Below are positions 2,841-49,132 of a DNA stretch of 64,000 bases, one piece after another. Position 1 is the stretch's first letter. Every line of letters starts with the position of its first letter. The notes below the pieces were generated by a model. It ran no database searches, was not told the origin of the DNA, and saw nothing but the letters and a program-made list of their open reading frames with translations. Position numbers and translations under genes: made by a program. This DNA comes from a phage: sequence record NC_129898.1. The stretch is one strand, 5' to 3'.

Positions 2841-3605
2841 TTGAAATTTATCTACAAAGAACACTACCACAAAGGTGTTGTGTGGAGTCTATTTGACGGG
2901 TCTGGTGGTGCAGTTATTGACTGGGCAAAAGCTGGATATCTGTGCCTGTGCTTTAACGCAGAAGGCGCTGACCATGGCAGTTATGCAGAGGTGATAACCG
3001 ATCATCCAAACATTCACTACGTGGATTATTGGATTGACCCGTGGTTTCCTCAAGAAACTTTTTGCATGTACCCAGCTCCAGACTTTATTCTTGCATTTCC
3101 TCCGTGCACGCATTTAGCAGTATCAGGTGCTGCACATTTTAAGAAAAAGCTGGCTAAGGATCCTCTGATTCAAATTAATGCTGTAAAAGATGCTCGGGTT
3201 GCAGAAGAGTTAGGAGAGATTTACGATTGCCCGTGGCATGTGGAGAATCCTGTGGGAGTTATGTCCACACTGTGGCGAAAACCTGATTACCGTTTTCATC
3301 CTTCAGATTATGGCGGGTATTTACCGGAGGATGATGTAAACCCGTGGTTTCCTGAATTTATAGCTCCACGTGATGCCTACCCAAAAATAACTTGCGGTTG
3401 GATAGGCAATGGATTTATAATCCCAGCCACAAAACCTGTTCCGCAAATAGTAGATGCGGTTAGTGGTTATTCTATGCAACACGCTAAGCTAGGTGGAAAG
3501 AGTGCAAGGACGAAGATGATTCGAAGCCTTACACCACGTGGCTGGGCTAAAGCTGTATTCTTAGCAAACGAGCCTGCAGTAAGGAGCAGAATTAATGGGC
3601 AGTAA
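2841..3605 (+). CDS. C5-cytosine methyltransferase-like protein (divergent, short)
   Basis: Motif I-like LFDGSGG, motif IV-like FPPCT (Cys kept, PCT not PCQ), motif VI-like HVENPV in canonical order. TTG start after AGGAGA chosen because ORF-track start 2811 lies in the terminator. Confidence 0.45.
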   Translation: MKFIYKEHYHKGVVWSLFDGSGGAVIDWAKAGYLCLCFNAEGADHGSYAEVITDHPNIHYVDYWIDPWFPQETFCMYPAPDFILAFPPCTHLAVSGAAHFKKKLAKDPLIQINAVKDARVAEELGEIYDCPWHVENPVGVMSTLWRKPDYRFHPSDYGGYLPEDDVNPWFPEFIAPRDAYPKITCGWIGNGFIIPATKPVPQIVDAVSGYSMQHAKLGGKSARTKMIRSLTPRGWAKAVFLANEPAVRSRINGQ

Positions 3606-5673
3606 ATTCATGGCATCTGCATACAACCGTTTCGGTGAGCCAAACCCGAAAGCAACCAAATATAAAAGTGGGGGGAGTGTGAAACGAGACTATCGTGATG
3701 AAAAAGAGGTCGAAACTGTAGAGACTGTTTTAGAAAATACTAAAATTGTCCCTGTCCCACAACAAAATATCGGACTAATGGCTGCACAATACTTTGGTGT
3801 GCGATCAGCATTGTCTCAAGAAGATGGGGTAACGGTCACTGCAACATATTTCCCATATTACGACCGCTACGGTAATCTATCTGGCTTTAAAAAGCGCGAC
3901 TGGACAATCCCTAAAGAGCAAAGAGGCCATTTCTCAGTTGTTGGCATAGTAAAGGCCAACTCTCAGATGTTTGGTCAAAAGCTGTGTGCATCCTCCAACA
4001 ACCGCAAGCAGATTAACGTTTGTGAGGGGGAAGGGGATGTTATTGCAGCATGGCAAGCTGCATATCAGATACAAGTGAAAGGTATTCTCACCAATGCTAA
4101 AGCCCCCGCGAAGGTGAAGCAGTGGGCTAAAGAAGTTCAGGATGGGATCGATGCAGTTATCAACGGCGGCGATCTGGCAGGAAAACCCTGCCTGCCTTTT
4201 GTTGGAATTAACTGCGGGTGTGCAAACGCCGTAGATACTTTTGCTAACAATGAGAAATTTATCCGTAGCTACGGAACAGTGGTCCTTGCAATGGACAACG
4301 ATGCAGCTAACGAGGTAGAGAAGCAAAAACACGTTATCAAAGGTGTTGAGGCCACACATAATATCGCAGCATTTTTGATGGCTGATAACGTTTACCACGT
4401 GGAATACCCAGGTGAGGTAAACGACCCTGATGGTGTAAAAGATATTCGTGACATGCTGAAGGCTAAAAAGCTGGAAGATATTGTCAACATGTTCCGTCAC
4501 CCAGTTAAATATGTGCCCGATGCTGTATCTGATTTAGAAGACTTCTCCATTGAGTCTCTTCGTAAGAAGACTTCCAATGGCGTGGATATCAGTGCGGAGT
4601 TCCCTAAATTGCAGAAGATGCTGAAAGGGCTCCACAAAGGCACCTTGATGATGCTGACAGGTCCATCTGGCGGTGGTAAAACAACTGTAGCCAAGAAGCT
4701 GGAACACTGCATCGCAAGATACTTGATGGATCCAACATGCCCTAAAGCTGATGATTATGAAGAGGATGATCGCCTGTGTCTGATTCACCTTGAAGAGGAT
4801 CCTGAGGAAGCAATCAACTCTCTGTACGCTAACCAGTTGGGGTTTGATGTTAAAGAGTTTGTTGAAGACCCTAGTCAGTTCCTGACCGACCAGGAGCACG
4901 CTGAGATTCATCAATCTTGGGCCAAGGCCGGAAAAATCAAAGTGTTCAAGCATTTCGGCTCCATCCCTGTGGATGAGCTGATCACTAAGCTTAAACAAAT
5001 GGTGTGCCTGTATCACTGCCGTTACATTGTGCTGGATCACTTGTCTATGGTGATTTCAGGGCTTAATGTTAAGGATGAGCGCAAAGAACTTGACATGGCT
5101 ATGACCCAACTAGCTGCGTTCTGTAAGCAGTTTAATGTGTTTATCCTGGTGATTGCTCACCTGAAACGTACAGAGATTGTACCTCCTAAGGATAAGGATG
5201 GGAATCCGTTGCCTTTCTGGTACCCTGTACGAAAAGAGAACCTTCGTGGTAGTGCCGGATTGGAGCAACTCAGCTGGGTAGTTGTTGGGGTAGAAGCAGA
5301 AGAGATGGTGGATCGTTCTCGTGGGCGTGTCCGTCTAGTAGGTCTTAAAAACCGTCCAGCAAAAACGTTAGGTATTGCGGACACTTTAGTTATGGATCCG
5401 CACACAGGCAAGTTCCACGATGCCAGCAATTGGTACTGGGATAAAGAAATGCAAATGTTTACAGACGGAGAAGGTGGGGAGGTTGTTTGGAGACCTCAGG
5501 CTATGTTTGAGGATCAGGATCATGCAGTTGTGGAAACACCTATGGGCAAGGTTGTGGCTGATAAGGTTGTAACTCCTACTGTTACCCCAGTTGACACACA
5601 GGAAGACCTTCAGTATGATGATCCGTCCTCTAACCACGTTCCTGGTTTTGAAGACGACGAAACACCTTTTTAA
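3595..5673 (+). CDS. DNA primase-helicase (TOPRIM plus T7 gp4-like helicase)
   Basis: TOPRIM-like CEGEGDV and MDNDAANE; Walker A LTGPSGGGKTT; IVLDHLSMV like T7 gp4 helicase motif. Confidence 0.85.
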   Translation: MGSKFMASAYNRFGEPNPKATKYKSGGSVKRDYRDEKEVETVETVLENTKIVPVPQQNIGLMAAQYFGVRSALSQEDGVTVTATYFPYYDRYGNLSGFKKRDWTIPKEQRGHFSVVGIVKANSQMFGQKLCASSNNRKQINVCEGEGDVIAAWQAAYQIQVKGILTNAKAPAKVKQWAKEVQDGIDAVINGGDLAGKPCLPFVGINCGCANAVDTFANNEKFIRSYGTVVLAMDNDAANEVEKQKHVIKGVEATHNIAAFLMADNVYHVEYPGEVNDPDGVKDIRDMLKAKKLEDIVNMFRHPVKYVPDAVSDLEDFSIESLRKKTSNGVDISAEFPKLQKMLKGLHKGTLMMLTGPSGGGKTTVAKKLEHCIARYLMDPTCPKADDYEEDDRLCLIHLEEDPEEAINSLYANQLGFDVKEFVEDPSQFLTDQEHAEIHQSWAKAGKIKVFKHFGSIPVDELITKLKQMVCLYHCRYIVLDHLSMVISGLNVKDERKELDMAMTQLAAFCKQFNVFILVIAHLKRTEIVPPKDKDGNPLPFWYPVRKENLRGSAGLEQLSWVVVGVEAEEMVDRSRGRVRLVGLKNRPAKTLGIADTLVMDPHTGKFHDASNWYWDKEMQMFTDGEGGEVVWRPQAMFEDQDHAVVETPMGKVVADKVVTPTVTPVDTQEDLQYDDPSSNHVPGFEDDETPF

Positions 5674-5731: not shown

Positions 5732-8155
5732 ATGAGTATGTGGTCTTTCGATCTGGAGGCCTCTGGCTTGCTGGAAGATCCAGATCTTTATTATCACTGC
5801 GGTTTGTTTAAAGAGCTGAATAAGAACCGTTTTATGCTGTTCCTTCCTCTAAATGACCGCACACACTACTCGGAAGAGGATGTAGAGAAGGCTAAGAACT
5901 TTATTCTGGCAAAGAGAACTCTTTATAAAGATTTTGAGGTTCGCATAGCAGATTTTTCAGAGTTGGAAGGTTGGCTTACAGGCAACTCAGACTGGTCACC
6001 TACGGCTTTGAACTGTCATAACTGCTACAGCTATGACTTTATGCTGATGGAAAGATTATCCGGTGTTCATTTTGATATGTTCCGTGATCCTAAATGTATG
6101 GGGACTATTAACGACCACCAGGTTAATCTGTTTGATACGTTGGCGATGAGTCGAATCTTGTGGCCTGACCGCCCTTTGCCAAAAGGTTGTCCGGACGCAG
6201 TATTCAATCCAGTTACCAAGAAAATGCAGCCTGTTGGGCCTCATGGCCTTATGGCATGGGGCTATGCCCTTGGTAACCAGAAAGTTCAAATCGATGACTG
6301 GCGTGAGCTTCCGCTGTGGAAGTATGTGGATCGTGTGTTCGAGGACGTTATCATCCAGGAGTTGCTCTGGAAAGAGTTGGTAGCGGAATCAAAAGGTGTA
6401 TTCTACGGCAAATCTGACATGCAGAACTTTATGTATGACCCTGCCAAAGAGAAGCCTAAAGGATTCAAGAAGATTACCTGGAAGAATGCATTACGCCGAG
6501 GCATGCTGCAGCATTTCCTGATGGAGCTGCAGGCTCGACAGGGTGTGTATTTCGACATAGATGGGGCTATTGCTTTACGTGACCGCTGCGATGCGTGGAT
6601 GAAAGAGATCGCTGATCGTGTTGAACCACAACTTCCTTTAAAAGAGTTATCAATGTCTCAGCGGCCTAAGTTCCCTGAAAAGCCGTTTAACCAGGATGGG
6701 ACAATCTCCAATAATGGTTGGAAATGGTTAAAAGACAAGCTTGGCTATCCTGTGGATATGAGCGCTTTAGAGTTCAAAGCTCCTCCTAAGCGAGCATTTA
6801 CCTCCACAGGGGATGTCAGTAAAATGGGGATAAAATGGTGTGAAGAGATGGGCTGTAAAGACCCAGATAAGATGGCTGATTTCTTGAGAGGGTATATCAA
6901 AGGAACTTCTACACCACACCCTTTACCTAAAGAGCTAATGGATCAGGCAATAAGTGACCTACAGCAGAAGCGAATGCCTGACTGCAAGATACCTATGAAA
7001 ATCAGCAATCAGGACGACATCAAGCGATACCTGATCAGTGCTGGTTGGCTCCCAACAATGTGGAGAACTAAGGATGTAACTAAAGACAGCAAGAAGAAAG
7101 CTCTGCCTGATGCTGATGTTGATGCACGAGTATATGCATATATGGACGAGCTTTTAGAGTCAGAGTATTGTGACCTAATTATCAACTTCTGGAACAAAAC
7201 TGATGCTAAGTTTCAGACAACCGTGCACAAGTTCCGAAGCTTCCCTAACTCAGAAAGGATTAAAAAGGAAGTGTTTGGGAAGATACGTAGAAAAGCCAGA
7301 GCGCTTATTACTTCTCCGCAACTGAAAGATACGTTTGGACACCTATGTCCGAATCTTGAAAAGTTGAACGGAGAGATGGCTAAAGATATCGTCTTGTGGT
7401 TATCCTTGCGAAACCGTAGATCGGTCCTTGATCCAATCAAGGAGGATAAGGTTGATACTGGTCTTCTTAATCATCCACGTTTGAAGATTGACCATAAGCT
7501 TCCTGCTAAAAGTTCTGGATTAACAAACACTTCCAGACAGAAACACAGCATTTGTGCAAACATGCCTAAACCATCTCCTAAAGTGGTTATGGGTAAAGAG
7601 ATGCGTAGTCTGTGGGGTGTTCCTCCAGGATACTTTGAGATCGGTATTGACGGGTCCAACTTAGAGCAGCTTATCGGGGCTTGGGGTGCCTTTGAGTTCG
7701 ACAACGGCCTGTACTATGATGTTGTAAGTAACGGGGACGCGCACCAAAACAATGCTGAGGCATATACAAAGGTAGCAGGTAGGGAGGTGTCTCGTAACGA
7801 TGGTAAACCTATCACGTATGGGGTTATGTATGGGGCACAAAAAGATAAAGTTGCAGATATGCTGGATATCTCTCCAGAGCTGGGGCAGAGAGTAATCGAT
7901 GCTCTCTGGGATGCCAACCCAGGCCTTAAGGGGCGTAAAGAGGATCTGGAGAAATTCTGGGAAGCAACAGGTAAGAAATTTATCTACTCTTTTGACGGTC
8001 ATGCCATTTGGACCCGCTCTAAACACTCTTTGCTTAATGCATATCAGCAAAATGGCGGTGCATCGTTGTGCGACTTGGTCGGAATCCTCATGCACCACCA
8101 AATGGTGAAGCGTGGATGGTATGATGAGGGTGTTCGTCGTATTATTTATTACCAT
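5732..8155 (+). CDS. DNA polymerase, family A (T7-like), exon 1
   Basis: FDLEASGL exo motif; GIDGSNLEQL (motif A) and RNDGKPITYGVMYG (motif B) align to T7 gp5; frame stops just before expected motif C. Confidence 0.85.
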
Positions 8156-8483
8156 AAATAACATTGTGGCTTCGTGCAGTGATGCACGTCGAAAACCTCT
8201 TTAATTGACGGGAAGGCTAAGTTGACTTTTACACCTAAACATGGTAAAAGCTCAATATGCTAATCCGCAGCGAAGCATCCGAGAGGATGAACGTTCAGAG
8301 ACTATCGAAAGCATAGCTCCAACACAGTTTGGGGTGAAGAAGCGAGTAGAGTAGGCCAGCAAGTGCGGTCGAAATGAGAGGTGCCTTGGTAACAAGGCAG
8401 TGAGATAGTCCGATCCATACGGGAAACTGTATGGCTATGCACGTAATGGTGCGGGGTAGCTTAACGACCTACCTGAACTATTG
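8156..8483 (+). ncRNA. group I self-splicing intron (ORF-less) in DNA polymerase gene
   Basis: 328 nt break between YYH and DEYQ; exon ends in U, intron ends in G; UUGUGG guide can pair CCAU|AA; P7-like CAGAGACUA (8296-8304) and UAGUCC (8406-8411). Confidence 0.65.
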
Positions 8484-8837
8484 GATGAGTACCAACTTCA
8501 AGTCCCTGACACACCTAAGTATAAAACTGTATACACCTTCGACACAATTGAAGAGCTGGAAACATTTAAGTCCCAGCAGGAGGCTAAACTTCATGTGTTC
8601 GACGGTCATAAGTACAAAAAGGCACGCAAGGATGAAGAAGGAAACGAAGTAGTTGACAGTGATGGAAATACGGTATACGATCCTATCTTGAACGATGACG
8701 GAAAGCTTGAACTTATCTGGAGCCCTGTGGGCGAAATGGTGGTACATTGCTTCTGGCAAGCTTCTAAAATGATGGGCGTTCCGTTCCAGATCACAGGTGA
8801 ATACTTGTGTGGACGTAACTGGGGCGATTGTCACTAA
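8484..8837 (+). CDS. DNA polymerase, family A, exon 2
   Basis: Joining restores motif C as YYHDEYQLQV (T7 AWVHDEIQV); C-terminus NWGDCH resembles T7 PNWAICH. Confidence 0.7.
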   Translation, partial: DEYQLQVPDTPKYKTVYTFDTIEELETFKSQQEAKLHVFDGHKYKKARKDEEGNEVVDSDGNTVYDPILNDDGKLELIWSPVGEMVVHCFWQASKMMGVPFQITGEYLCGRNWGDCH

Positions 8838-46246: not shown

Positions 46247-47209
46247 TCAGCAACCACAACTTCCGTAGTGCTTAACCCGTTCTATAACCTCCGCTTGCTT
46301 ACCTTTATTGTAAGGACGGGAGTTTGGACTGGACAGATACCCGGATACACGTCTAATCACACTGATCGTTCCCTCTTCATGGTTTCCACACTCTGGGCAT
46401 ACAAAGCCTTTAGCTGTTGCACTGAACTCACCAGAGAATCCACACTTAAGACATTTATCCACAGGCTGGTTAATACCAAAATACATAATGTGTTTATATC
46501 CGAAATCAACAAGAGCTTCCAAAGCATCTAAGTTGTTTTTCAGATTTGGTGTCTCTATGTACCCAATGTTGCCACCAGAGGAGATCATAGCAAAACCTTC
46601 CTCATACTTCCACTTATCAAAAGGCGAGCTATTGATCCATACTGGCTGATGGAAACTGTTGGTGAGGTATTCATGCTCGTGCTTCAACACTTCTGGGTAT
46701 TCACGATCCAGACAGGTTGCAGCTTTATAGCATAAACTCTCAGAAGGTGTGCCGTACAAGCTAAATGCTAGTCCACTTTCCTTCTTGTATCGCTCACAAG
46801 CATCTTTCATGTGCTGAAGGATTCCAAGAGCTAAAGCCTTGTCACCCTCTCTGCCCAAAATCTGACAGGTTTCATACACACCAATATACCCAATACTGAT
46901 GGAAGCGTACCCGTCATAGAAGAGTTTATCGATACTCTCTTCAGGATCCAGGCTAGCAAGAGCTCCTTCACACCACATGATAGGGTTATGCCCTGCCTTT
47001 GTTCCTTTTAGACGGTTAACTCTTACAAGGTGAGCCTCATATGCCAAATCCAAATATTCGTCAAGAACTGCAAAGAAATCAACACCTTCCGTTTTAGCTT
47101 TTGCCGCAATCATTGGTAGGTTAAGGCTAACAACACCCAAGTTGAATCTGCCAAGGTATTTCTCCTCGCCTGTTACAGGGTCGCTATATTTCGATAAGAA
47201 ACTTCTACA
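46247..47209 (-). CDS. nrdD: anaerobic ribonucleoside-triphosphate reductase, exon 2
   Basis: Glycyl-radical motif RRVSGYL; zinc ribbon CLKCG...CPECG; begins CRSFL. Confidence 0.8.
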   Translation of the reverse strand, partial: CRSFLSKYSDPVTGEEKYLGRFNLGVVSLNLPMIAAKAKTEGVDFFAVLDEYLDLAYEAHLVRVNRLKGTKAGHNPIMWCEGALASLDPEESIDKLFYDGYASISIGYIGVYETCQILGREGDKALALGILQHMKDACERYKKESGLAFSLYGTPSESLCYKAATCLDREYPEVLKHEHEYLTNSFHQPVWINSSPFDKWKYEEGFAMISSGGNIGYIETPNLKNNLDALEALVDFGYKHIMYFGINQPVDKCLKCGFSGEFSATAKGFVCPECGNHEEGTISVIRRVSGYLSSPNSRPYNKGKQAEVIERVKHYGSCGC

Positions 47210-47971
47210 CATTATGTTCAAGGTGGTTCGCAAGGCCACCCCCGCACCATTACGTGCTGCTGCATGTCCCCATGCAGATCAGACTATATCTTCACACTTA
47301 GTGTGTCTACCATTTCGAGTGTCATCAGCTTACACCCTACACCGCTACATTCATCACGGTTAGTCGTTAGGCATTTCGTAACAGAACTCGTAATCATAGT
47401 TATTAGGTGCACCACGTTTCAGGATAGCAGATATTCTTTTTCTATCTATTCCTAAAACATCAGCACAACATCTCAGACTCTTAAAGTGAATAACCACACC
47501 AGTTAATTTGTGGGTGGCTTTCACCCCGTGACATCTTGTGTAAAAAGCATAACAGTTGTTGTCGTATCCTTCTTGAGTATTGTCTGGGCAAGCTCCCCAC
47601 TCAAGGTTGTATACGCTGTTATCTTTCCTGTTGTCACCTTTGTGCTTAACATATGGTAAATTGTCTGGATTTGGTAAAAACGCTTCAGCAACAAGTCTGT
47701 GAACCCTTAGGCAAACAGTCTTTTTGTTCTTGCGTATCCTGACAAGACGGTAACCTGTGTTTATCTCTTCCCACGAATGAATAATTCTTTCATTTTCGTA
47801 TCGGGTGCAATAAACATTGCCCATCTCGTCAATTTCATAACCTTCAAAATCACGAATTTGTTTTCTCATTTCAGGACTCCTCTTAGTCAGGAGTTCTGTT
47901 ACGTTTAGCACGGGATTGTCCGTTCTGGAGTTTCCCCGTTTAGATAGATTTTACATGAGCAGTTATAGTTT
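47210..47971 (-). mobile_element. group I intron in nrdD carrying an HNH homing endonuclease gene
   Basis: 762 nt break between ...TSMG and CRSFL...; exon ends in U, intron ends in G; HNH ORF in a different frame; P7-like GACUAA and UAGUCUGA downstream of the ORF. Confidence 0.65.
47360..47911 (-). CDS. intron-encoded HNH homing endonuclease
   Basis: HRLVAEAF...VKHKGDNRKDN...NLEW HNH core; C-terminal helix-turn-helix-like IDRKRISAILKRG; AAGAGGAG RBS. Confidence 0.8.
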   Translation of the reverse strand: MLNVTELLTKRSPEMRKQIRDFEGYEIDEMGNVYCTRYENERIIHSWEEINTGYRLVRIRKNKKTVCLRVHRLVAEAFLPNPDNLPYVKHKGDNRKDNSVYNLEWGACPDNTQEGYDNNCYAFYTRCHGVKATHKLTGVVIHFKSLRCCADVLGIDRKRISAILKRGAPNNYDYEFCYEMPND

Positions 47972-49132
47972 ACCCATGCTTGTTACTTTGCCGTCTGTTG
48001 AACCTGTCACTTTACGATTTAGTGGAACAGAAACAAAGTCAGGATAAATCCGCTCTGCAGAGCATTCTAGAGCCAATCGTTTCAAATCGTAGTTAGGATC
48101 CCCAGGGTTCATGTTGACACCCTCCTCTAAGAAGAACAGCACTTTAGGAAACACAGGGGTGATCCGTTCTTCACCAAGACCCATTTTGTGGACTTTCAAG
48201 TAGTTTTTGGTAATCATTCTACCAAAGACCGAGGTATCCAGTCCTAAACTTAATGTGATGAATGGAGTTTGCCCGTTGACAGAAGTTAACGTATTGATTT
48301 GGTAGAGCAAAGTTTGCATACTATCAAACACGTCTTTATCTGTCATTTGCATTGCAACAGTCTCAGCATCTGGCAACCAATGCTCCTGACAAAATTTAAG
48401 GTTCTTCTCATAGGTTGCTTCAGCATACTGTGCCAGATAATGATCAATATGGCTCATGGTTTGACCACCATATTGAGCACTAGCTACTGCACTAGAGATT
48501 TGGCTAAGGATTGTTGTTGCAACCCCTATTGACTTCGGCTTACTGACATGGGCGTTGCCAATGTTGAATCCGTTTTCCAGCATATCCGGATAATTTACCA
48601 AACAACAGTTTGTTAACGGACTGATCAGGTAGTCAAGATCATGCACATGGATGAAGCCTTTGTTGTGCTCTTCGGAGACACGGTCTGGCAGGATCTGTGT
48701 TGATGCAAGATGTTTGCTAAGGATGCCTGCAAGCAGGTCACGATGAGTGTGTACATGATTAGTAGGCTTATTTGCGTTTTCTTTTGTAAATTCATCACAA
48801 GTACGATCCAAGAAGCCACTAATATCTGCAAGCAGTTTTCCACCTGCCTCTCTGTTATTATCTCTTGTCTGTCTATACTGGATGTATTCTCTGGCTGCAC
48901 ATTTTAAACCCATATCCATAAGAGCATCTTCAACAAGGATATGGATATTTTTTACAGAGATCGTGCACTGGTCGGTTGGCAGATTGTTGGCAACAACTTC
49001 ATTAACCGCACAGGCAATCCGGTAAGCTTCTTCTTCAGTATGTCCAGACTCAAGTAAGGCGGACTCTGCCGCCTTGATCACCTTAATTCCGTTATAAAAC
49101 TCTTCTCTACCGTCCCGTTTTACAACTTTCAC
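47972..49132 (-). CDS. nrdD: anaerobic ribonucleoside-triphosphate reductase, exon 1
   Basis: ATP-cone-like N-terminus MKVVKRDGREEF; frame stops 3 codons after inferred splice point. Confidence 0.8.

What the first reader, a model, noticed from the sequence alone, without database searches (positions are those of the whole stretch)
8156..8483. ORF-less group I intron splits the T7-like DNA polymerase gene at motif C
The polymerase frame stops at YYHK*, and 328 nt later the sequence resumes with DEYQLQV and ends NWGDCH. Joining 8155 to 8484 restores motif C (YYHDEYQLQV versus T7 AWVHDEIQV). The exon ends in U and the intervening sequence ends in G; UUGUGG at the intron 5' end can pair with exon CCAU|AA, and CAGAGACUA / UAGUCC resemble P7 strands. 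Group I introns in phage family A polymerase genes are known, so this is probably an instance of a known class; the exact sequence may be new.
Basis: partly seen in the sequence, partly recalled or inferred. Interest (0 to 1): 0.7.

Follow-up and report, generated by a model that had tools for sequence, protein, structure and literature searches.

The report
ORF-less group I intron in phage polymerase

Summary
The polymerase frame (5732-8155) stops one codon into an insert of 328 nt (8156-8483) and resumes at 8484. Joining 8155 to 8484 gives a 925-aa family A polymerase, the same length as intron-less alleles of close relatives, whose DNA reads CCAT|GATGAG across the junction. Rfam's group I model scores 75.6 bits (threshold 50). 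A hand-drawn P1-P10 structure with P7.1/P7.2 (subgroup IA2) and P9.1/P9.2 holds across nine divergent homologues: 92.6% of cells are paired against about 39% in slid controls, and 31 pairs show compensatory changes. No endonuclease gene is present. A 14-nt GNRA-capped P6a hairpin sits where FV3 and about 30 related records carry a 528-nt HNH homing-endonuclease cassette.

The window is a Vequintavirus, 99.3% identical to phage HMD-6. The element is not new. The same intron is in GenBank, BASEL-collection records annotate a sister intron as a spliced CDS, the homologue in Pectobacterium phage CB7 splices by RT-PCR, and the T7-like phages PhiI and W31 are reported to carry an IA2 intron at the same polymerase position (Pol I site 881).

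In passing I found a second, endonuclease-carrying intron of the same family, splitting nrdD at 46247-49132 on the minus strand.

The parts
5732..8155 (+). Exon 1 of the family A DNA polymerase gene (808 codons, ends ...IIYYH, last base U8155)
   Evidence: ORF list. It is collinear with the intron-less DrSchubert polymerase of 2778 nt.
8156..8483 (+). Group I intron, subgroup IA2, 328 nt, with no endonuclease ORF
   Evidence: RF00028 scores 75.6 bits, E = 2e-17. Boundaries are fixed by the intron-less alleles. Covariation is shown. The MFE fold has z = -2.85 and recovers most helices.
8484..8837 (+). Exon 2 of the polymerase (117 codons plus stop; DEYQLQV...NWGDCH*)
   Evidence: The Pfam DNA_pol_A match spans residues 620-822, across the junction at 808|809.
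8152..8169 (+). P1 hairpin: exon CCAU plus intron AA (8152-8157) pairs with the guide sequence UUGUGG (8164-8169). U8155.G8166 is the wobble pair at the 5' splice site.
   Evidence: Rfam alignment. All 6 pairs are invariant in 9 homologues.
8162..8165 (+). P10 guide (CAUU), which pairs with the first four bases of exon 2 (GAUG, 8484-8487)
   Evidence: Read directly from the sequence. The pairing is kept, with C to U (G-C to G.U), in phage 24-2-1.
8173..8188 (+). P2: CGUGCA / UGCACG with a GUGA (GNRA) loop
   Evidence: All 6 pairs show compensatory changes among the homologues and 100% of cells are paired.
8195..8201 (+). P3 5' strand (ACCUCUU), which pairs with 8376-8382 (GAGAGGU)
   Evidence: 3 of 7 pairs have compensatory changes. 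The long-range helix is also found by the MFE fold.
8206..8269 (+). P4 (8206-8212 with 8264-8269) enclosing the extended P5/P5a/P5b arm (8216-8260)
   Evidence: Rfam alignment and MFE fold. P5a/b varies in length among homologues, so covariation there is not informative.
8271..8293 (+). P6 with the P6a hairpin CAUCC-GAGA-GGAUG (8276-8289). This is the site where relatives carry the HNH endonuclease cassette.
   Evidence: Alignment to FV3: 528 nt carrying a 168-aa HNH ORF replace these 14 nt. P6a covaries with MaxTheCat's CGCUC-AAAA-GAGCG.
8300..8304 (+). P7 5' strand (GACUA), which pairs with 8406-8410 (UAGUC). G8300-C8410 is the presumed guanosine-binding pair.
   Evidence: 100% of cells are paired. 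U-A changes to C-G in MaxTheCat and SSE121. The G-C pair is invariant.
8305..8370 (+). P7.1 (8305-8345, with the P7.1a extension 8317-8334), a linker ending in GUA, and P7.2 (8354-8370). This is the hallmark of subgroup IA2.
   Evidence: The 68-nt block lies between P7 and P3' in the Rfam alignment. P7.2 covaries (2 of 4 pairs). In SSE121 the linker is exactly GUA.
8383..8398 (+). P8: GCCUUG / CAAGGC with a GUAA loop
   Evidence: 4 of 6 pairs have compensatory changes.
8415..8434 (+). P9 hairpin
   Evidence: 98% of cells are paired and 2 pairs have compensatory changes.
8439..8473 (+). P9.1 (8439-8452) and P9.2 (8455-8473), peripheral hairpins beyond the end of the Rfam match
   Evidence: Both are 100% paired, with 2 compensatory pairs each. 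A homologous tail is present in the nrdD intron of the same window.
8483..8483 (+). Terminal guanosine (omega G) at the 3' splice site
   Evidence: Position fixed by the intron-less alleles. G is conserved in all 10 homologous introns examined.

Best explanation

**Proposed mechanism (inferred from the anatomy):**
1. The pre-mRNA folds into P1-P9 with P7.1/P7.2 and P9.1/P9.2.
2. A free guanosine bound at the G8300-C8410 pair of P7 attacks after U8155, which is held in P1 by the guide sequence UUGUGG.
3. P10 (exon GAUG with intron CAUU) and the terminal G8483 then position the 3' splice site.
4. The 3'-OH of U8155 attacks there and joins 8155 to 8484.

The spliced mRNA encodes one 925-aa polymerase with an intact motif C (YYHDEYQLQV). 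Unspliced RNA would terminate after one extra codon (AAA-TAA) and would lack the catalytic Asp and Glu.

The intron has no homing endonuclease gene. P6a is a 14-nt GNRA-capped hairpin where sister introns (FV3 and others) hold an HNH endonuclease cassette. This copy therefore cannot promote its own spread. It is inherited, or moved by recombination or by an endonuclease supplied by a co-infecting relative.

**Shown here:** boundaries, fold, covariation, absence of an ORF, restoration of the reading frame. **Inferred:** the splicing chemistry itself.
For: - **Model score:** RF00028 scores 75.6 bits against a gathering score of 50, E = 2e-17, and is the only Rfam hit above gathering score in the window.
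- **Junction:** the spliced length of 2778 nt equals the intron-less DrSchubert polymerase, and the intron-less alleles read CCAT|GATGAG. tblastn with the joined protein gives single-piece, 100%-coverage matches at about 98% identity in intron-less relatives.
- **Motif C:** the joined sequence aligns to T7 gp5 VHDEIQV.
- **Covariation:** 84 proposed pairs across 9 homologues give 92.6% of cells paired against 38-40% for slid controls. 31 pairs have changes on both sides, and 0 of 500 shuffles reach the observed covariation.
- **Independent fold:** the MFE fold recovers P1, P2, P3, P4-P6a, P7.1, P7.2, P8, P9 and P9.2 (z = -2.85).
- **Conserved site:** introns sit at the same site, with the same P1 and guide sequence, in four genera of Vequintavirinae and in Vibrio phage S4-7.
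- **Splicing in a homologue:** the CB7 homologue (same boundaries) was shown to splice by RT-PCR and Sanger sequencing (PMC7344957).
- **Existing annotation:** the BASEL record MZ501094 annotates the sister intron as a joined CDS.
- **No independent start for exon 2:** the only candidate start is TTG 8481, with no Shine-Dalgarno sequence upstream.
Against: - No RNA data exist for this phage, so splicing itself is inferred.
- The first proposed P3 pair (A8195-U8382) is unpaired in 6 of 9 homologues, and the P5a/b arm is poorly alignable, so those details of the drawing are soft.
- Pfam DNA_pol_A scores 31.7 bits, just under its 34.3 cut-off. The polymerase assignment therefore rests on E = 1e-7, the T7 gp5 alignment and homologue annotations.
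Confidence: 0.93

Rival explanations
1. The insert does not splice. The polymerase is made as two polypeptides (809 aa and about 118 aa) that assemble after translation, as reported for the mobE-split NrdA of Aeromonas phage Aeh1.
For: GenBank records such as HMD-6, FV3 and JLBYU08 annotate two separate polymerase CDSs. Non-splicing split genes do exist in phages, as discussed in PMC7344957.
Against: - The split falls between His and Asp-Glu of catalytic motif C.
- Exon 2 has no ATG or GTG start and no ribosome-binding site. Its only candidate start is TTG 8481, inside the intron.
- A non-functional spacer would not keep 31 base pairs through compensatory changes.
- The homologous CB7 intron does splice.
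Confidence: 0.04
2. The insert is a decayed intron remnant that has lost self-splicing. The polymerase gene is then a pseudogene, or splicing depends entirely on a protein cofactor.
For: Loss of the endonuclease gene is the expected first step of intron degeneration in the homing cycle (established model; my own knowledge).
Against: - All core elements are intact and the Rfam score is well above threshold.
- The gene is essential, and a 99.3% identical phage (HMD-6) is a propagated isolate.
- The intron core is 99.0% identical to the endonuclease-bearing FV3 copy, with no sign of relaxed constraint.
Confidence: 0.02
3. The insert is an assembly or sequencing artefact, or an intein or other kind of insertion.
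For: None found.
Against: - The same architecture is present in dozens of independently sequenced genomes.
- There are stops in all three frames, which rules out an intein.
- The fold is specific to group I introns.
Confidence: 0.01

Closest known systems
Polymerase intron of Vequintavirus phages FV3, rV5_ev146, APECc02 and others (the HNH-carrying form)
   Same: Same insertion site and same ribozyme. It is 99.0% identical (311 of 314 nt) outside P6a.
   Different: Those copies carry a 528-nt cassette in P6a encoding a 168-aa HNH / I-HmuI-like endonuclease. Here a 14-nt hairpin, CAUCC-GAGA-GGAUG, takes its place.
ORF-less polymerase introns already in GenBank: HMD-6, JEP1 and JLBYU08 (328/329 nt); Avunavirus 24-2-1 (317 nt); BASEL phages MaxTheCat and RudolfGeigy (276 nt, MaxTheCat annotated as a joined CDS)
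   Same: Same site, same architecture and no ORF. HMD-6 is 99.4% identical.
   Different: The 276-nt form has shorter P5 and P7.1 arms and a core only about 69% identical, although its first 18 nt and last 50 nt are identical to the window.
Polymerase intron of Pectobacterium phages CB7 and phiTE (Certrevirus), containing HNH CB7_50
   Same: Same splice-site sequences (TACCAT|AAGTAACATTGTGG ... TTG|GATGA) and a homologous 3' half. Splicing was demonstrated by RT-PCR and sequencing (PMC7344957).
   Different: It is 687 nt and carries a different, shorter HNH gene that starts in the P5 arm and runs through P4' and P6.
Group IA2 introns in the DNA polymerase genes of the T7-like coliphages PhiI and W31 (Bonocora and Shub 2004)
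   Same: Reported to be self-splicing, subgroup IA2 and inserted at E. coli Pol I position 881, the His of the HDE motif. That corresponds to the site used here. Their endonuclease sits in P6a, as in FV3 (PMC3428280; T7 alignment).
   Different: Those are podoviruses and their introns carry an HNH ORF. I could not obtain the sequences or the primary paper, so homology of the RNAs is untested.
Other phage IA2 introns: T4 td, nrdB and nrdD(sunY); SPO1, Bastille and Pf-WMP3 polymerase introns
   Same: Same subgroup features (P7.1/P7.2 joined by GUA) and the same habit of sitting in conserved catalytic regions of DNA-metabolism genes (PMC3428280; partly my own knowledge).
   Different: The SPO1, Bastille and Pf-WMP3 introns sit at polymerase site 674 and phiL7 at site 676, not 881.

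Membership tests
Group I catalytic intron (Rfam RF00028) | Covariance-model score at or above the curated gathering score | tested here: met
   75.6 bits against 50, full-length model match 1-253, E = 2e-17.
Group I catalytic intron (Rfam RF00028) | P1 helix formed by the 5' exon end and an internal guide sequence, with a U.G wobble at the 5' splice site | tested here: met
   CCAU|AA (8152-8157) pairs with UUGUGG (8164-8169), with U8155.G8166 at the splice site. The helix is invariant in 9 homologues.
Group I catalytic intron (Rfam RF00028) | Conserved core P3-P8 including the P3/P7 pseudoknot and a G-C pair in P7, supported by covariation | tested here: met
   92.6% of cells paired against about 39% in slid controls. 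31 pairs have double changes. P7 is 100% paired and its G-C pair is invariant.
Group I catalytic intron (Rfam RF00028) | Terminal guanosine at the 3' splice site, and P10 pairing with the 3' exon | tested here: met
   G8483 precedes exon 2. GAUG (8484-8487) pairs with CAUU (8162-8165). The boundary is fixed by the intron-less alleles.
Group I catalytic intron (Rfam RF00028) | Removal restores an uninterrupted, conserved coding sequence | tested here: met
   The joined gene is 2778 nt, equal to the intron-less DrSchubert gene. Single-piece tblastn matches occur in intron-less relatives, and motif C HDE is restored.
Group I catalytic intron (Rfam RF00028) | Guanosine-dependent self-splicing of the RNA | not testable with these tools
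   Needs in vitro transcription with GTP, or RT-PCR. Only the CB7 homologue has RT-PCR evidence (PMC7344957).
Subgroup IA2 | Two extra helices, P7.1 and P7.2, between P7 and P3', joined by a G-U-A linker (criterion as quoted in PMC3428280) | tested here: met
   P7.1 is 8305-8345 and P7.2 is 8354-8370, with GUA (8351-8353) immediately before P7.2. The linker is exactly GUA in SSE121. P7.2 covaries.
Mobile (homing) group I intron | Encodes a homing endonuclease | tested here: not met
   No ORF exceeds 47 aa. None has a Pfam match and all overlap the ribozyme core. P6a is a 14-nt hairpin where FV3 carries its HNH gene.
PhiI/W31-type polymerase intron (Pol I site 881) | Insertion after the His codon of motif C (HDE) | tested here: met
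   The joined YYH|DE aligns to T7 gp5 VH|DE, residues 653|654. Site 881 for PhiI and W31 is taken from PMC3428280. The equivalence of Pol I H881-D882 with T7 H653-D654 is from my own knowledge.
PhiI/W31-type polymerase intron (Pol I site 881) | Sequence homology of the intron RNA to the PhiI and W31 introns | not tested
   AY769989 and AY769990 are not in the collections and the primary paper is not held. No T7-like phage appeared among the listed blastn hits of the intron.
Family A (T7-like) DNA polymerase (host gene) | Match to the family profile and to a solved member across motifs B and C | tested here: inconclusive
   Pfam DNA_pol_A gives E = 1e-7 but 31.7 bits against a cut-off of 34.3. 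T7 gp5 matches at E = 2e-5 over residues 522-658. Homologues are annotated as family A polymerases.

The most novel reading that the evidence does not exclude
The endonuclease-less intron may not be a mere passenger. It could be kept because it breaks the target site of the HNH homing endonuclease encoded by the sister intron, which about 30 related phage records carry, and so protects this phage's polymerase gene from cleavage and gene conversion in mixed infections. The evidence neither excludes nor establishes this. The intron core is more similar to FV3 (99.0%) than the flanking exons are (91.7% and 94.0%). Intron and exon histories are decoupled across the group, which points to ongoing exchange of intron variants.
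Probability: 0.25. Interest if true: 0.35.

Novelty: already known. Interest (0 to 1): 0.15.

Why it matters
The practical value is for annotation. HMD-6, FV3, JLBYU08 and other records list this polymerase as two separate genes, and the rV5 genome paper gives the polymerase as 775 aa and discusses introns only in the terminase gene. The correct product is one spliced 925-aa enzyme.

For biology, the locus adds a well-supported example to a known pattern: IA2 introns sitting in the catalytic motifs of phage DNA-metabolism genes. Vequintaviruses also offer a natural series for studying the homing cycle, with an intron-less form, two ORF-less forms and an HNH-carrying form all at one site. None of this is surprising to a specialist.

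Tried and rejected
- **3' splice site at 8433, the end of the Rfam match.** Rejected. It would shift the frame by 50 nt and contradicts the intron-less alleles. Positions 8434-8483 form the covarying P9.1 and P9.2.
- **Intein.** Rejected, because there are stops in every frame.
- **Hidden endonuclease remnant in the intron.** The three internal ORFs (37-47 aa) have no Pfam match. MAFFT's placement of the P6a hairpin against part of the FV3 HNH gene is only a short chance match.
- **Detecting the endonuclease-containing homologues with Rfam.** This failed, because the large inserts break the model. I excised the cassettes by hand instead.
- **Reading Bonocora and Shub 2004 or fetching the PhiI and W31 sequences.** Neither is held, so the link to those introns rests on a secondary source.
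- **Looking for T7-like phages through the FV3 endonuclease protein.** This returned only a very broad I-HmuI-like HNH family, with no informative T7-like polymerase hit among the rows listed.
- **A second copy of the P4'-P6 segment in the window**, as seen in the terminase gene of relatives. None was found.
- **P9.0 pairing.** I looked at it by eye, but it is not conserved among homologues and I do not claim it.

Full report
**1. The observation**

- The long ORF 5732-8161 ends ...RRIIYYHK*, with CAT at 8153-8155 followed by AAA TAA.
- 328 nt later, at 8484, a frame opens with DEYQLQV and runs to NWGDCH* at 8837.
- The interval has stop codons in all three forward frames and no ORF longer than 47 aa on either strand.
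- Joining 8155 to 8484 gives a 2778-nt, 925-codon gene reading ...RRIIYYHDEYQLQV....

**2. It is a group I intron**

- A scan of the whole window against Rfam gives one match above threshold: RF00028, 8146-8433, 75.6 bits against a gathering score of 50, E = 2e-17, covering the full model.
It also shows a 68-nt block between the 5' strand of P7 and the 3' strand of P3.
- The thermodynamic fold of 8146-8491, which knows nothing of group I rules, recovers P1, P2, the long-range P3, P4-P6a, P7.1, P7.2, P8, P9 and P9.2. Its energy lies 2.85 SD below shuffled sequences.

**3. What the window is, and where the exact boundaries lie**

- The region is 99.3% identical to Escherichia phage HMD-6 and 92-96% identical to FV3, rV5_ev146, APECc02 and many other Vequintavirus genomes.
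- tblastn with the joined protein finds close relatives (DrSchubert, Pr121LW, EdH4, nimi, magaca) in which the 235-aa query matches in one uninterrupted piece at about 98% identity. These are intron-less alleles.
- DrSchubert's polymerase CDS is 2778 nt, the same as the joined length here.
- Their DNA reads ...TATTACCAT|GATGAGTACCAA... (Pr121LW). This fixes the intron as 8156-8483 with no freedom to slide.
- The Rfam match stops 50 nt short of the true 3' end only because the generic model lacks P9.1 and P9.2.

**4. Structure and covariation**

I collected homologous introns at the same site from:
- JLBYU08;
- MaxTheCat (a divergent 276-nt form);
- the Avunaviruses 24-2-1 and Av-05;
- the Seunavirus SSE121;
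- phage A73;
- FV3;
- Vibrio phage S4-7.

Where an endonuclease cassette was present I cut it out, then aligned the sequences.

A hand-drawn structure of 84 pairs was scored on that alignment. It comprised P1, P2, P3, P4, P5/5a/5b, P6/6a, P7, P7.1/7.1a, P7.2, P8, P9, P9.1 and P9.2.
- 92.6% of cells are standard pairs, against 38-40% when the 3' partners are slid by 1-3 columns.
- 31 pairs change on both sides, against 3-8 in the slid controls.
- None of 500 shuffles reaches the observed covariation score.
- P2 (6 of 6 pairs), P8 (4 of 6), P3, P6a, P7, P7.2, P9, P9.1 and P9.2 all carry compensatory changes.
- P1 is invariant, as expected when the exon side is a conserved codon.
- Weak points are the first P3 pair and the length-variable P5a/b arm.

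P7.1 and P7.2 lie between P7 and P3' with GUA directly before P7.2; in SSE121 the linker is exactly GUA. Under the criterion quoted in PMC3428280, this places the intron in subgroup IA2. P10 can form between exon GAUG (8484-8487) and CAUU (8162-8165).

**5. ORF-less, and what sits there in relatives**

- Against FV3 the intron is 99.0% identical (311 of 314 nt) except in P6a.
- There FV3 has 528 nt encoding a 168-aa HNH / I-HmuI-like endonuclease. The window has the 14-nt hairpin CAUCC-GAGA-GGAUG instead.
- tblastn with that endonuclease finds 31 records at 90% identity or more.
- From the spans listed, about half of the roughly 120 matching records carry an intron at this site. About 30 have the HNH gene. 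About two dozen have the 276-nt ORF-less form. Only HMD-6, JEP1 and JLBYU08 share the 328/329-nt ORF-less form. These counts are approximate, because only 40 rows were listed.

**6. How it most likely works**

This is the standard group I pathway.
1. Guanosine bound in P7 attacks after U8155.
2. P10 and the terminal G8483 then dock.
3. The exons are ligated.

The chemistry is inferred; the anatomy is shown. Three points bear on the alternatives.
- Unspliced RNA would yield an 809-aa product lacking the motif C Asp and Glu.
- The joined protein aligns YYHDEYQL to T7 gp5 AWVHDEIQV, residues 650-658, and the Pfam DNA_pol_A match runs across the junction.
- Exon 2 has no credible start or ribosome-binding site of its own, which argues against a two-polypeptide enzyme.

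**7. Comparison with what is known**

- Pectobacterium phage CB7 has an intron with the same splice-site sequences, 687 nt long and holding HNH CB7_50. That intron was reported to splice by RT-PCR with Sanger confirmation (PMC7344957).
- The BASEL record for MaxTheCat already annotates its polymerase as a two-piece joined CDS.
- The T7-like phages PhiI and W31 are reported to carry self-splicing IA2 introns at Pol I position 881, with an HNH gene in P6a (PMC3428280 citing Bonocora and Shub 2004). Position 881 is the His of HDE, the site used here. I could not obtain those sequences, so shared ancestry is untested.
- The rV5 genome paper describes introns only in the terminase gene and gives the polymerase as 775 aa (PMC3606486). 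The polymerase intron is therefore under-reported in the literature, although it is present in the databases.

**8. Verdict**

- The element is an instance of an already known intron, with a near-identical copy in GenBank.
- The specific ORF-less allele has not been characterised experimentally, but nothing about it departs from expectation.
- Interest is low.

**9. Side observations**

- **A second intron in the window.** A sub-threshold RF00028 hit (47260-47494, minus strand, 32.9 bits) lies in a split anaerobic ribonucleotide reductase gene. The NrdD N-terminal part is 47963-49132, an HNH / I-HmuI-like ORF is 47360-47911, and the NrdD C-terminal part is 46247-47239. The two NrdD parts both break at Pfam NRDD profile position 263.
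- **A shared 3' tail.** The 3' end of that intron (P7', P9.1 GCACGUAAUGGUGC, P9.2) is clearly homologous to the polymerase intron's tail. One intron family therefore occupies at least two genes in this genome.
- **Decoupled histories.** The intron is 99.0% identical to FV3 while the flanking exons are 91.7% and 94.0% identical. Against MaxTheCat the intron is about 69% identical and the exons about 92%.

Noticed in passing
window 46247-49132, minus strand (Rfam hit 47260-47494): A second group I intron, this one carrying an endonuclease gene, splits the anaerobic ribonucleotide reductase gene nrdD. Exon 1 is 47963-49132 (ATP-cone plus NRDD profile 1-263). A 183-aa HNH / I-HmuI-NUMOD-like ORF lies at 47360-47911. 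Exon 2 is 46247-47239 (NRDD 263-562 plus the glycyl-radical domain). RF00028 scores only 32.9 bits (E = 1.3e-4), because the endonuclease ORF interrupts the model. The arrangement resembles the T4 nrdD (sunY) intron (my own knowledge).
   Followed up: partly
window 8400-8483 (+) compared with window 47215-47300 (-): The 3' domains of the polymerase and nrdD introns are homologous. P9.1 is identical (GCACGUAAUGGUGC), followed by GGGG and a P9.2 hairpin with compensatory changes (GGUAG...CUACC against GGUGG...CCACC), then UGAAC. One intron family has colonised at least two genes of this genome.
   Followed up: partly
window 8261-8311; relatives DrSchubert (terminase large subunit), JES2013, slur16 and others: Intron bases 106-156 (P4'-P6-P6a-P7) match a 51-nt stretch at 94% identity in or near the terminase large-subunit gene of many Vequintaviruses. 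This is probably the terminase intron noted in the rV5 paper. No such copy is in this window.
   Followed up: partly
L003 (MaxTheCat) 3557-3832 compared with window 8156-8483: Intron variants are mosaics, and their history is decoupled from that of the exons. MaxTheCat's intron shares its first 18 nt and last 50 nt exactly with the window. Its P2 is close to JLBYU08's (stem identical, tetraloop GUAA against GUGA). Its P7 and P9 are identical to those of the Seunavirus SSE121, and its P7.1 is the same kind of short GAAA-capped hairpin. Overall it is about 69% identical while its exons are about 92% identical. FV3's intron core is 99.0% identical while its flanking exons are 92-94% identical.
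   Followed up: partly
relatives JEP1 (MT740314), VB-EcoM-WM (PQ014731) and Mangalyan (OR449013); region homologous to window 7600-8155: These records span about 970 nt more than the window within exon 1. This points to a second insertion site (intron and/or endonuclease gene) in the polymerase gene of some relatives. phiTE, CB7 and Vibrio phage S4-7 also have a second upstream polymerase intron. That site is empty in this window.
   Followed up: no
L004 (DrSchubert, intron-less) around 1846-1866 compared with window 8147-8155 and 8484-8495: The intron-less DrSchubert allele differs from intron-containing alleles by four synonymous changes just downstream of the insertion site (GAC GAA TAT CAG against GAT GAG TAC CAA). 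A fifth synonymous change, 9 nt upstream of the junction (ATC against ATT), is shared with the intron-less Pr121LW, whose downstream codons are identical to the window's. The DrSchubert changes could affect recognition by the HNH endonuclease.
   Followed up: no
L002 (FV3) about 3685-4245: In the endonuclease-carrying form, a 9-nt stretch between the ribosome-binding site and the ATG (GGTGTAGTT) is complementary to the last codons of the HNH ORF (AACTACACC). This forms a long-range P6a stem that could mask translation initiation. In phiTE (L011, about 712-745) the endonuclease gene is preceded by a promoter-like TTGACA-16 nt-TATGAT inside the P5 arm. Both were read from the sequences and were not tested.
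   Followed up: no
public records MG0656xx ('Campylobacter phage C12, C7, A147 ...'): About 20 records labelled as Campylobacter jejuni phages are 92-93% identical to this E. coli rV5-like polymerase region. Their host labels look doubtful.
   Followed up: no
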